A stretch of DNA of 64,000 nt. Source: an uncultured Gammaproteobacteria bacterium (GTDB lineage Bacteria > Patescibacteriota > Microgenomatia > Levybacterales > UBA12049). The first letter of the stretch is position 1. Each line of letters begins with the position of its first letter. Positions 37,333 to 38,103 of the stretch are shown here, in pieces. The stretch is taken from contig CAZDOJ010000003.1 in NCBI GenBank assembly GCA_964507055.1, positions 4,819-68,818 of the forward strand, in the 5' to 3' direction. A program made the translations under genes and the position numbers. The notes beneath the pieces were generated by a model that ran no database searches, was not told the origin of the DNA, and saw only the letters and a list, made by a program, of their open reading frames with translations.

Positions 37333-38103
37333 ATGCTTAGAAAAGGTATTCTTGCCACGATTGTAGGATTGCTGTTTGTGACAGCTATTTCCCCTGTGGC
37401 AGCATCAGATTTATCAAACGGAACTGCCATAGGTGTTACAGTCTCAGACAAAGACATTCAGGACGGTGATATTATTAGCTCAACGCAAGAAGGTTACAAA
37501 AGAACTGTTTCAGCGTATGATCCACAAATCTTTGGAGTCATCAGTAAAAGACCAGCGGTATATTTAAGTGACACAACTTCCCCAACAGATCTTCCTGTCA
37601 TCAGTGTCGGACAAGCTCGCGTCCGAGTTACTACACAAAATGGAAATATCCAGCGAGGAGATTTTATAACTTCTTCAACAATACCGGGCGTTGGTCAGAA
37701 AGCGAGAGATAACGGCTATGTTATAGGTACAGCAGATCAAGATTACAGTAACAATGACACGAAGAAAGTTGGGATAATTCTTGTAACACTCCATCCTCAT
37801 TTCGCAAAACTATCAAACGATATCACAAGGAATCTTTGGAATACAGCAACATTAGGATTTACGGCTGCACTTGAAACACCTCTTGGATTTGTGAGATATG
37901 TGGTTTCCGGTACGATCGCATTACTTTCATTCTTCTTTGGATTTAGATTCTTCGCAAGATCATCCAATCGAGGTGTTGAAGCAATTGGACGTAACCCTCT
38001 TGCAAAGCAAGCAATCCTCTTAAGTGTGTTCATCAACAGTATGGTTACTATTGCAATTATGTTCTTTGGTGTTGCTATCGCGTATTTGATTCTAGTACTA
38101 TAA
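37333..38103 (+). CDS. Fusion-like membrane protein: N-terminal signal/anchor, a roughly 120-aa extracytoplasmic domain homologous to a C-terminal domain of giant protein B, and a C-terminal 2-TM hairpin resembling ATP synthase subunit c (loop 'VEAIGRNP') but lacking the conserved carboxylate and Gly motif. First gene of the atp operon.
   Basis: Strong RBS. Ends 4 nt before atpF. The C-terminus 'SNRGVEAIGRNPLAKQAILLSVFINSMVTIAIMFFGVAIAYLILVL' resembles the c-subunit loop 'QGKAVEGIARQPE' followed by helix 2, but the E/D position holds Ile/Thr. The ectodomain 'GDIISSTQEGYKRT...NGNIQRGDFITSSTIPGVGQKA' matches giant B 'GDLVIADPNNTEYVKRS...NGPIKPGDYLTSSSIPGVAMKA'. Confidence 0.6.
   Translation: MLRKGILATIVGLLFVTAISPVAASDLSNGTAIGVTVSDKDIQDGDIISSTQEGYKRTVSAYDPQIFGVISKRPAVYLSDTTSPTDLPVISVGQARVRVTTQNGNIQRGDFITSSTIPGVGQKARDNGYVIGTADQDYSNNDTKKVGIILVTLHPHFAKLSNDITRNLWNTATLGFTAALETPLGFVRYVVSGTIALLSFFFGFRFFARSSNRGVEAIGRNPLAKQAILLSVFINSMVTIAIMFFGVAIAYLILVL

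What the first reader, a model, noticed from the sequence alone, without database searches (positions are those of the whole stretch)
37333..38103. atp operon headed by a chimeric protein in place of atpB/atpE: secreted domain plus a subunit-c-like hairpin lacking the proton-binding carboxylate
The canonical a and c subunit genes are absent upstream of atpF. In their place, tightly coupled (4-nt gap, strong RBS), is a 256-aa protein. Its last roughly 85 aa form two TM helices with a loop 'RGVEAIGRNPLAKQ' resembling the c-subunit 'EGIARQPE' loop. Helix 1 lacks the GxGxGxG packing motif, and helix 2 has no Glu/Asp at the ion-binding position. This may be a degenerate or regulatory c-like subunit, an unusual c-ring component, or a remnant. 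The functional atpB/atpE must then be elsewhere or missing, which is relevant to whether this organism has a complete H+/Na+-translocating F0.
Basis: partly seen in the sequence, partly recalled or inferred. Interest (0 to 1): 0.8.

Follow-up and report, generated by a model that had tools for sequence, protein, structure and literature searches.

The report
Proton-blind rotor subunit with surface domain
In this ultra-small (CPR) bacterium the "ATP synthase" operon has no proton channel, and its rotor-ring gene is replaced by a conserved relative that has lost the proton-binding residue and gained a cell-surface domain, so the machine probably burns ATP to do work at the surface rather than making ATP.

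Summary
ORF 37333-38103 (256 aa) heads a tightly packed operon: b-like, delta-like, alpha, gamma, beta, epsilon. No atpB or atpE lies nearby.

It is not a remnant. dN/dS is 0.016-0.08, there are 648 clusters at 50% identity, and the gene holds the same operon position in about 80 Microgenomates loci. Parcubacteria carry a longer form.

[quoted passage not shown] They are only 29-44% identical to canonical CPR and Chloroflexus alpha/beta, which are 58-65% identical to each other. Catalytic motifs are intact.

The best reading is a CPR-specific F1-like ATPase whose c-derived ring is uncoupled from ions and exposes a surface domain. This resembles the mycoplasma F1-like X0 ATPases. Giant surface proteins are conserved neighbours.

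One point is unresolved: whether these genomes also carry a canonical F1Fo operon elsewhere.

The parts
37287..37316 (+). promoter-like site (TTGACA, 18 nt, TACTAT) in front of the operon
   Evidence: Consensus scan, 10 of 12 matches. This is a consensus match only.
37323..37328 (+). Shine-Dalgarno AGGAGG, 4 nt before the ATG at 37333
   Evidence: Read directly from the sequence.
37333..38103 (+). gene for the 256-aa ectodomain plus c-like hairpin fusion protein (first gene of the operon)
   Evidence: ORF list. 370 homologues at 90% clustering. 648 clusters at 50% identity for the hairpin profile. dN/dS 0.081.
37333..37404 (+). Sec-type signal peptide (residues 1-24, V-A-A cleavage motif, no lipobox Cys)
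   Evidence: Sequence and family consensus P-x-x-A-Q/S. Helix 3-17 in the model. Cleavage is inferred, not shown.
37405..37812 (+). extracytoplasmic beta-rich domain (residues 25-160) with the fold of phage capsid decoration/cement proteins
37822..37875 (+). linker helix (residues 164-181) between the ectodomain and TM1
   Evidence: AlphaFold2 secondary structure, lower pLDDT of 68-80.
37888..37959 (+). TM helix 1 of the c-like hairpin (about residues 186-209); conserved A192, S199, F200, G203, F204, F207; no GxGxGxG
   Evidence: hhalign covers both helices when the canonical profiles are merged (69 columns).
37972..38004 (+). cytoplasmic loop G214-V-E-A-I-G-R-N-P-L-A224, counterpart of the c-subunit R-Q/N-P loop that contacts gamma/epsilon
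   Evidence: R220, N221, P222, L223 and A224 are invariant in 80 of 80 diverse sequences; E216 in 79 of 80. The loop aligns to AIGRNPE of Chloroflexus and CPR c subunits.
38008..38097 (+). TM helix 2 (residues 226-255); polar stripe S231 / N235 / T239
38050..38052 (+). codon of I240, the position homologous to the essential ion-binding Glu/Asp of subunit c
   Evidence: HMM and hhalign alignments. Column composition is I39 V15 L10 A9 F4 M2 in 80 sequences. It is never D/E in 148 cluster representatives.
38108..38821 (+). b-like peripheral-stalk subunit (237 aa; one N-terminal TM helix, long helix, conserved C-terminus)
   Evidence: Position and architecture. Weak NCBIfam hit to subunit B, E=0.012. 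Family alignment.
38839..39342 (+). delta/OSCP-like subunit (167 aa)
   Evidence: PF00213, 22.3 bits, at the gathering threshold. NF009976 E=4.4e-6.
39339..40832 (+). alpha subunit (497 aa), divergent
   Evidence: PF00006 E=5e-67. Below the NCBIfam atpA cut-offs. Arg finger SVSRVG kept. 34% identical to canonical CPR alpha.
40843..41730 (+). gamma subunit (295 aa), very divergent
   Evidence: PF00231 E=4e-20. TIGR01146 scores 48 bits against a cut-off of 194. Start taken from the orthologue in L001.
41791..43182 (+). beta subunit (463 aa), catalytic motifs intact
   Evidence: GGAGVGKT and GERTREG are present. 39% identical to canonical CPR beta.
43186..43587 (+). epsilon subunit (133 aa; beta-sandwich only, P/Q-rich N-terminal extension)
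   Evidence: PF02823 E=8e-10; no PF00401 hit.
19070..35968 (-). conserved neighbour: giant 5632-aa surface protein with a cytoplasmic MerR/HTH_17 N-terminus, a TM anchor and a conserved membrane-proximal region (possible partner; association inferred)
   Evidence: Pfam. A related ORF is adjacent to the operon in 63 of 81 loci. The membrane-proximal region is homologous to large proteins downstream of epsilon in Parcubacteria-type loci, E=3e-12 and 9e-10.

Best explanation
The gene encodes the membrane subunit of a CPR-specific, deeply divergent F1-like ATPase.

Steps that are shown:
- The C-terminal hairpin descends from F-type subunit c.
- It keeps the N-out / loop-in / C-out topology and an invariant R-N-P cytoplasmic loop.
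- It has lost the ion-binding carboxylate in every member examined.
- No subunit a is encoded in or near any of about 90 such operons.
- The F1 catalytic residues are intact.

Steps that are inferred:
- After Sec export and signal-peptide cleavage, the hairpins assemble into a c-ring-like oligomer.
- Its loops dock the gamma/epsilon foot.
- Its N-termini carry a crown of decoration-protein-like domains on the outer face of the membrane.
- With no carboxylate and no a-subunit half-channels, the complex cannot translocate H+ or Na+ and cannot make ATP.
- It therefore hydrolyses ATP. The resulting torque or conformational change of gamma/epsilon plus ring is held against alpha3beta3 by the b/delta stalk, and is passed through the membrane to the ectodomain crown.
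- From there it may reach surface partners. The conserved adjacent giant surface proteins are the prime candidates.

Functionally it would be an 'F1-like X0' motor for work at the cell surface, as in mycoplasmas, not a chemiosmotic ATP synthase.
For: Homology to subunit c:
- hhalign of the hairpin against 94 database-derived canonical c subunits gives Prob 95.5%, P=1.5e-8. With a merged profile it gives 95.7% over 69 columns. The reversed control gives 0.3%.
- The hairpin profile searched against all PDB sequences returns F-type c subunits as its top 7 hits, best E=0.0011.

Loss of the carboxylate:
- (0 D/E among 80 plus 148 sequences).

No subunit a or stand-alone c:
- (six-frame search, 1.5 Mb, with positive controls).
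- (Pfam-labelled gene lists).

Selection and spread:
- dN/dS 0.016-0.08.
- 648 clusters.
- Same operon position in about 75 of 80 Microgenomates loci and in Parcubacteria long-form loci.

Separate ATPase lineage:
- Fusion-type alpha and beta form one clade, 29-44% identical to canonical CPR/Chloroflexus alpha/beta. The canonical ones are 58-65% identical to each other.
- Canonical 8-gene operons with recognisable a, c and b subunits exist in other CPR.

Catalytic competence:
- beta GGAGVGKT in 62 of 65, GERxREG in 61 of 65, and the alpha Arg finger in all aligned sequences.

Stalk is dispensable in a subclade:
- Some operons read fusion-alpha-gamma-beta-epsilon with no b or delta. That is hard to reconcile with a rotary ion pump.

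Surface link:
- The ectodomain fold.
- Giant surface-protein genes adjacent in 63 of 81 loci and in Parcubacteria-type loci.

Precedent:
- The mycoplasma F1-like X0 ATPase includes a protein with a signal peptide, ectodomains and two C-terminal TM helices, and is required for an extracellular function (PMC3369863, PMC12994834).
Against: - No experimental data exist. Ring formation, docking of gamma/epsilon, rotation and any interaction with the giant proteins are all inferred.
- I could not scan whole genomes, so a canonical atpB/atpE (or a full second operon) elsewhere is not excluded.
- Retention of the b and delta stalk in most lineages is what one expects of a true rotary enzyme, and it needs a membrane stator partner that is not identified here.
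- A near-invariant polar residue in mid TM2 (N235; His in 14 of 80) and Q/E at position 229 leave room for some unconventional ion interaction.
- A 15-kDa domain on every N-terminus of the inner helices may be sterically awkward for a tight c-ring.
- Its phage relatives form trimers, so the real oligomer may not be a classical ring.
- Giant HTH-headed proteins are multi-copy (three in this window), which inflates chance adjacency.
Confidence: 0.55

Rival explanations
1. This is an accessory or minor ring component of an otherwise ordinary H+/Na+ F1Fo. Canonical atpB and atpE are encoded elsewhere and assemble with this F1, b and delta. The fusion protein either joins a hetero-oligomeric c-ring (lowering the ion/ATP ratio, as A. 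woodii c1 does) or helps ring assembly or anchoring.
For: - The b-like and delta-like stalk subunits are retained.
- Carboxylate-less c hairpins do occur in mixed rings (A. woodii c1, 4bem_J, is among the PDB hits).
Against: - No a or c subunit lies within +-10 kb in about 90 loci.
- Where CPR do have a and c subunits, they sit in complete canonical 8-gene operons with their own, very different F1.
- This operon's alpha and beta are only 29-44% identical to those canonical ones.
- A subclade has also lost b and delta.
- None of the 98 Chloroflexus/Wolfebacteria-type c clusters found lies on a contig whose length matches the near-complete fusion-bearing chromosomes. This is weak evidence.
Confidence: 0.2
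2. This is a passive anchor. The c-derived hairpin only tethers a soluble-type F1-ATPase to the membrane, and the ectodomain fixes it to the cell wall or S-layer. ATP hydrolysis serves another purpose, such as regulation or ATP/ADP homeostasis, and no force is passed to the outside.
For: - Coupling residues have been lost.
- Decoration-protein folds are typically static binders or stabilisers.
- The b/delta-less subclade exists.
Against: - The extreme conservation of the gamma/epsilon-facing loop, the retention of gamma, epsilon, b and delta, and the hairpin dN/dS of 0.016 argue for a mechanically meaningful interface rather than a mere tether.
- A futile membrane-tethered ATPase would be costly in a fermentative organism with a minimal genome.
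Confidence: 0.15
3. This is an unconventional ion-coupled rotor. The ring still carries ions through a non-carboxylate site (N/H235, S231, T239, Q/E229), with another protein such as the b-like TM helix replacing subunit a.
For: A conserved polar stripe on TM2, with His in 14 of 80 sequences at position 235 and Glu in some at position 229.
Against: - Every characterised F/V/A rotor ring uses a Glu/Asp. This is established knowledge, not tested here.
- Asn cannot be protonated.
- The b-like TM helix has no conserved polar or charged residue.
- No multi-TM candidate stator is present in the operon.
Confidence: 0.06
4. This is an artefact or decay product: a frameshifted or mis-assembled atpB/atpE region, a pseudogene, or an unrelated membrane protein that merely sits next to atpF.
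For: None beyond the initial oddity of the arrangement.
Against: - The gene is intact in more than 100 independent assemblies at the same position.
- dN/dS is far below 1.
- It has its own promoter-like site and RBS.
- Profile and fold homology to subunit c hold.
Confidence: 0.02

Closest known systems
F-type ATP synthase subunit c (AtpE, PF00137), especially the Chloroflexus / CPR-Wolfebacteria type with an AIGRNPE loop
   Same: - Two-helix hairpin with N- and C-termini outside and a cytoplasmic R-N-P loop.
- Gene placed immediately before atpF.
- Detectable profile homology (95.5%) and near-identical fold.
- The Thr preceding the carboxylate (FTE in canonical c, VTI here) is kept.
   Different: - The essential Glu is replaced by Ile/Val/Leu in all members.
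- There is no GxGxGxG motif in helix 1.
- It carries a signal peptide plus a 135-residue ectodomain (or HTH plus TM anchor plus ectodomain in the long form).
- No subunit a partner is present.
- It scores below the Pfam and NCBIfam thresholds.
Mycoplasma F1-like X0 ATPases (Types 2 and 3; MSC_0618-0624 / MMCAP2_0575-0581; M. mobile gliding motor)
   Same: - A divergent alpha/beta/gamma/epsilon set combined with a non-Fo membrane sector.
- One component (Protein 5, MSC_0620/MMCAP2_0577) has a signal peptide, a large extracytoplasmic part and two C-terminal TM helices joined by a short loop.
- It is genetically linked to surface proteins, and ATP hydrolysis is used for an extracellular task (PMC12994834, PMC11864180).
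   Different: - There is no sequence relationship. The NCBIfam MSC_0618/0619 and MMOB1660/1670 models score lower than atpA/atpD, and no MSC_0620-type model hits the fusion protein.
- No 12-TM protein is present.
- The b and delta stalk is retained in most lineages.
- The membrane subunit here is demonstrably c-derived.
- It occurs in a different phylum (CPR).
- Coexistence with a genuine F1Fo is unknown.
Carboxylate-less c-type hairpins in mixed rings (Acetobacterium woodii c1; V-type proteolipids)
   Same: c-fold hairpins that have lost the ion-binding Glu yet remain part of a rotor ring (4bem_J is among the hits).
   Different: - Those are duplicated subunits that keep at least one carboxylate per polypeptide.
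- They work beside carboxylate-bearing c subunits and a subunit a.
- They carry no ectodomain.
Phage capsid decoration / cement / stabilisation proteins and the phi29 gp12 C-terminal autochaperone (the ectodomain only)
   Different: - Sequence identity is only 10-19%.
- It is a cellular, membrane-tethered protein in an ATPase operon, with no phage context (PHROGs: nothing significant).
- Trimerisation is not tested.
N-ATPase (alternate F1Fo, atpDCQRBEFAG)
   Same: A second, divergent F-type operon lineage found beside canonical ones.
   Different: N-ATPases keep subunit a and a Na+-type c with its carboxylate, and add AtpQ/AtpR. The NCBIfam alt_F1F0 models score below the canonical atpA/atpD models here.

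Membership tests
F-type ATP synthase subunit c (AtpE / PF00137) | Helical hairpin of two TM helices with a short polar cytoplasmic loop (R-Q/N-P) | tested here: met
F-type ATP synthase subunit c (AtpE / PF00137) | Sequence-profile membership (score above the curated family threshold) | tested here: not met
   PF00137 is hit by only 7 of 114 members, best E=0.04, below the gathering score. NF005521 scores 16 bits against a cut-off of 122. Homology is nevertheless supported by profile-profile comparison (95.5%, P=1.5e-8) and the PDB profile search (E=0.0011).
F-type ATP synthase subunit c (AtpE / PF00137) | Conserved ion-binding Glu/Asp in the middle of TM2 | tested here: not met
   The position aligns to I240. 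The column is I/V/L/A/F/M in 80 sequences and never D/E in 148 cluster representatives.
F-type ATP synthase subunit c (AtpE / PF00137) | Gly/Ala-rich GxGxGxG packing motif in TM1 | tested here: not met
   TM1 consensus is RY..AG.I.LLSF.FGF.FF. Only A192, S199 and G203 are conserved small residues.
F-type ATP synthase subunit c (AtpE / PF00137) | Works against a subunit a (atpB) encoded with it | tested here: not met
   No PF00119-type ORF in the window or in about 90 related loci, with positive controls at E=1e-117 to 1e-130. The rest of the genome is not testable with these tools.
F-type ATP synthase subunit c (AtpE / PF00137) | Assembles into a homo-oligomeric ring bound by gamma/epsilon | not testable with these tools
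   Only single-chain prediction is available. Inferred from the invariant loop and the operon context.
Mycoplasma-type F1-like X0 ATPase | Divergent alpha/beta/gamma/epsilon genes clustered with membrane proteins that are not Fo a/c | tested here: met
   Operon content. alpha and beta are 29-44% identical to canonical ones. The membrane subunit here is, however, c-derived.
Mycoplasma-type F1-like X0 ATPase | Sequence membership in the MSC_0618/0619 (Type 3) or MMOB1660/1670 (gliding) families | tested here: not met
   NF045934 scores 357 bits (cut-off 570). NF045936 scores 247 (cut-off 520). NF045863 scores 348 (cut-off 600). NF045858 scores 349 (cut-off 850). All are lower than the atpA/atpD models.
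Mycoplasma-type F1-like X0 ATPase | Absence of the delta and b peripheral stalk; presence of a 12-TM protein | tested here: not met
   b-like and delta-like genes are present in the window. No 12-TM ORF is found. The stalk is absent only in a subclade.
Mycoplasma-type F1-like X0 ATPase | Coexists with a genuine F1Fo operon in the same genome | not testable with these tools
   Whole genomes could not be fetched. Canonical operons exist in other CPR.
Phage capsid decoration/cement protein fold (ectodomain) | Shared beta fold | tested here: met
Phage capsid decoration/cement protein fold (ectodomain) | Significant sequence-family membership or phage context | tested here: not met
   Best Pfam E-values are 3.6e-4 to 6.7e-4, below thresholds. 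PHROGs E=0.2. The neighbours are cellular genes.
N-ATPase (alternate F1Fo) | atpQ/atpR plus a subunit a and a Na+-type c with carboxylate | tested here: not met
   None is present in the operon. The alt_F1F0 models score below the atpA/atpD models.

The most novel reading that the evidence does not exclude
A large part of what is annotated as 'F-type ATP synthase' in CPR/Patescibacteria (Microgenomates and many Parcubacteria) may not be a chemiosmotic enzyme at all. It may be an ATP-burning rotary or mechanical motor. Its c-ring has been turned into an ion-blind transmembrane shaft that carries a surface crown, and it drives or remodels the giant adhesin-like surface proteins encoded next to it. 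This would be an independent CPR counterpart of the mycoplasma gliding and MIB-MIP F1-like motors. It would imply that these episymbionts have no ATP synthase and no ATPase-generated proton motive force.
Probability: 0.25. Interest if true: 0.92.

Novelty: new variant of a known kind. Interest (0 to 1): 0.8.

Why it matters
Reviews up to 2026 still puzzle over why CPR bacteria without a respiratory chain keep 'complex V'. They assume it either uses or makes a proton gradient (PMC11665869, PMC13293708).

If this operon type has no ion path, metabolic reconstructions that count it as an ATP synthase or proton pump are wrong for hundreds of species. The energy budget and membrane energisation of these episymbionts would then need another explanation.

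It would also be the second independent case, after mycoplasmas, of an F1 motor redeployed for work at the cell surface. Here there is a clear evolutionary trail (c subunit to ion-blind, ectodomain-bearing subunit). The result is a compact, testable system for studying how rotary ATPases are rewired.

The conserved linkage to giant surface proteins points to a role in host attachment, which is the central unsolved aspect of CPR biology.

Tried and rejected
- A regex for the subunit-a motif found nothing, but it later proved too strict: it would miss RLFGNIFAGK of Wolfebacteria. It was replaced by HMMs from real a subunits.
It gave only 81% probability and was superseded by database-derived c subunits.
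- The roughly 1.7-kb gap between the fusion gene and the b-like gene in about 30 loci was checked as a possible hidden subunit a. It encodes cofactor-independent phosphoglycerate mutase.
- Extra 'alpha' hits in two loci are Rho.
- Multi-TM ORFs in the flanks are ComEC-like or unrelated.
- Short 73-190-aa hits that looked like stand-alone hairpins are N-terminally truncated fragments.
- The AFDB Foldseek library was unavailable.
- PHROGs gave nothing.
- Ten literature searches found no description of this protein or operon type in CPR.
- A strict regex for the giant-protein membrane-proximal motif was too narrow (7 loci). It was replaced by phmmer.
- I could not determine whether a canonical operon coexists in the same genome.
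Full report
**1. What is in the window**

ORF 37333-38103 (+) encodes 256 aa. It has a promoter-like TTGACA-18-TACTAT at 37287-37316 and an AGGAGG 4 nt upstream of the ATG.

Four nucleotides after its stop codon begins a 237-aa protein with one N-terminal TM helix and a long helix (b-like). Then follow delta/OSCP (weak), alpha, gamma, beta and epsilon.

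Upstream lie a 319-aa HTH protein and, on the other strand, a 5632-aa protein. There is no room for atpB or atpE, and no sign of either.

**2. Anatomy of the protein**

An AlphaFold2 model built on 114 homologues (pLDDT 84.8) shows four parts:
- an N-terminal hydrophobic helix, a Sec-type signal peptide with a V-A-A motif;
- a beta-rich domain (residues 29-158);
- a linker helix (164-181);
- two long helices (183-220 and 222-255).

The loop between the two helices carries four positive charges, so the predicted topology is N-out, loop-in, C-out. That is the topology of subunit c.

**3. Is the hairpin really a c subunit?**

Curated models do not reach threshold. PF00137 gives a best E of 0.04 in 7 of 114 members, and NF005521 scores 16 bits.

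Other tests support homology:
- A hairpin-only profile searched against all 177,635 PDB sequences returns F-type c subunits as its top seven hits, best E=0.0011.
- With 94 canonical c subunits retrieved from the database (Chloroflexota and a CPR Wolfebacteria type) it gives 95.5%, P=1.5e-8.
- With the merged profile it gives 95.7% over 69 columns, covering both helices. A reversed-sequence control gives 0.3%.

The alignment puts AIGRNPLA on AIGRNPE, T239 on the Thr of the canonical F-T-E, and I240 on the essential Glu. Together with the position directly before atpF, I regard descent from atpE as well supported.

**4. What has changed**

Across 80 diverse homologues, position 240 is I/V/L/A/F/M. 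Among 148 cluster representatives it is never Asp or Glu.

Helix 1 has no GxGxGxG motif. In contrast, R220-N221-P222-L223-A224 and I228 are invariant and E216 is nearly so. This is the loop that contacts gamma/epsilon in canonical enzymes (established knowledge).

N235 (His in 14 of 80), S231 and T239 form a conserved polar stripe of unknown meaning.

**5. Not a remnant, not an artefact**

- dN/dS against the 87%-identical orthologue is 0.081 overall and 0.016 for the hairpin.
- The family has 370 clusters at 90% identity.
- The hairpin profile finds 648 clusters at 50% identity, with the hairpin always at the extreme C-terminus.
- Apparent short forms are truncated fragments.

**6. Context across genomes**

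A scan of GTDB species representatives found at least 127 species. I fetched 80 loci. The records are titled Levy-, Woese-, Ames-, Roizman-, Davies- and Curtissbacteria; many are mislabelled.

- In about 75 of 80 loci the order is fusion - b - delta - alpha - gamma - beta - epsilon.
- About 30 loci have phosphoglycerate mutase inserted after the fusion gene.
- A subclade has lost b and delta altogether.

A longer form (390-590 aa) has a cytoplasmic HTH_17 domain, a TM anchor, the same ectodomain and the same hairpin. It occurs in Parcubacteria-type genomes (Sungbacteria, Berkelbacteria and others), in the same operon position.

No subunit a or stand-alone c is present in any of these loci. HMMs built from real CPR and Chloroflexus a and c subunits find the controls at E=1e-117 to 1e-130 and nothing else.

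**7. The operon as a whole is a separate lineage**

Canonical eight-gene operons do exist in CPR: atpB-E-F-H-A-G-D-C, with Pfam-recognisable a, c and b subunits (Wolfebacteria and another genome).

- Their alpha and beta are 58-65% identical to those of Chloroflexus.
- The alpha and beta of fusion-type operons form one clade that contains the short form, the long form and the stalk-less form.
- That clade is only 29-35% (alpha) and 36-44% (beta) identical to the canonical ones.
- Gamma, delta and epsilon also score far below family cut-offs.
- Catalytic residues are nevertheless kept: beta P-loop in 62 of 65, GERxREG in 61 of 65, and the alpha Arg finger in all aligned sequences.

So this is a distinct, fast-evolved but catalytically competent F1-like ATPase, not a locally damaged ATP synthase.

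**8. Mechanism**

Shown:
- c-derived hairpin;
- carboxylate lost;
- no subunit a in or near the operon;
- F1 catalytic site intact;
- extracytoplasmic domain with a decoration-protein fold;
- strong constraint on the cytoplasmic loop.

Inferred:
- The hairpins form a ring or ring-like oligomer that binds gamma/epsilon.
- The complex cannot move ions and therefore acts as an ATPase.
- Its mechanical output is delivered across the membrane to the ectodomain crown.

A plausible recipient is the giant surface protein encoded next to the operon. An ORF with the same MerR/HTH_17 head or membrane-proximal region is adjacent in 63 of 81 loci, against 8 occurrences elsewhere in the flanks. The large proteins downstream of epsilon in Parcubacteria-type loci share the membrane-proximal region (E=3e-12 and 9e-10). 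In those lineages the HTH_17 module sits on the c-like protein instead. This link is suggestive only, because such giants are multi-copy.

**9. Comparison with known systems**

The nearest functional analogue is the mycoplasma F1-like X0 ATPase. It consists of divergent alpha/beta/gamma/epsilon plus non-Fo membrane proteins. One of these has a signal peptide, ectodomains and two C-terminal TM helices. It is required for the surface MIB-MIP system or for gliding (PMC3369863, PMC12994834, PMC11864180).

Membership in that family fails on sequence, on the 12-TM protein and on stalk loss. The resemblance is therefore convergent or parallel.

Membership in PF00137 sensu stricto fails on the carboxylate, the Gly motif and the score thresholds, although the hairpin is homologous.

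I found no paper describing this protein or operon type. Recent reviews still treat CPR complex V as PMF-coupled.

**10. Open point**

I could not search whole genomes, so a canonical operon elsewhere in the same organism is not excluded.

Because CPR a and c subunits, where seen, come with their own F1, the most likely alternatives are 'no canonical enzyme at all' or 'a second complete operon'. In both cases the complex encoded here lacks an ion path. The hetero-ring scenario, with orphan atpB/atpE serving this F1, seems least likely (about 0.2).

Noticed in passing
window 19070-35968(-), 5604-13724(-), 2-4999(-); L001-L086 flanks: Giant surface proteins (5632 aa, 2706 aa, and over 1600 aa) begin with a cytoplasmic MerR/HTH_17 domain followed by a TM anchor. 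An ORF with this head or the conserved membrane-proximal region (DIDxGxGxxxASNVxY..AG..I.VTGD) lies directly next to the ATPase operon in 63 of 81 loci.
   Followed up: partly
P0223, P0178, P0172 and others; L087 10001-11326, L089 10001-11329: A 'long form' of the c-like protein occurs in Parcubacteria-type genomes. One or two N-terminal HTH_17 domains and a TM anchor replace the signal peptide. The adjacent large surface protein there lacks the HTH head. The HTH module therefore appears to have swapped between the two neighbours, a Rosetta-stone-like hint.
   Followed up: partly
L020, L034, L052, L059, L071: A subclade has the operon fusion-alpha-gamma-beta-epsilon, with no detectable b-like or delta-like gene.
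   Followed up: partly
L019, L024, L027, L028, L030, L035-L038 and others (about 30 loci): A 560-590-aa cofactor-independent phosphoglycerate mutase gene is inserted between the fusion gene and the b-like gene, so a glycolytic enzyme is embedded in the ATPase operon.
   Followed up: no
L091-L094 versus L096: Canonical CPR (Wolfebacteria-type) atp operons have a c subunit 73% identical over the query fragment to Chloroflexus c, and alpha/beta 58-65% identical to Chloroflexus. This is unusually close and is compatible with shared ancestry or transfer between Chloroflexota and CPR.
   Followed up: no
L087 16976-17368; L094 13649-14005: A 118-130-aa PF05635 (23S rRNA intervening-sequence protein) gene is inserted inside atp operons of both the fusion type and the canonical type in Parcubacteria-like genomes.
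   Followed up: no
L021 8742-13235(-), L055 1896-6047(-), L048 8159-9502(+): Large ORFs near the operon also match the fusion protein by phmmer, most likely through its ectodomain. The decoration-like domain may therefore also be used in other surface proteins.
   Followed up: no
window 43186-43587(+) and 39339-40832(+): Epsilon has a Pro/Gln-rich N-terminal extension of about 30 residues and no C-terminal helical (PF00401) domain. Alpha has only about 10 residues where E. coli alpha (sequence recalled from memory) has its roughly 24-residue delta-binding N-terminal helix, and it gives no PF02874 or PF00306 hits, unlike canonical CPR alpha.
   Followed up: no
record titles of L007-L086: Many public MAG records that carry this clearly CPR-type locus are titled 'uncultured Gammaproteobacteria/Pseudomonadales', 'Sulfotelmatobacter', 'Acidiferrales' or 'Nanoarchaeia'. 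These are probably taxonomic mislabels in the deposited assemblies.
   Followed up: no
window 14761-19002(-): A 1413-aa protein combines Peptidase_M23, DUF2341 and a Laminin_G_3/ConA-like domain. It may be a cell-wall-lytic surface protein relevant to an episymbiotic lifestyle.
   Followed up: no
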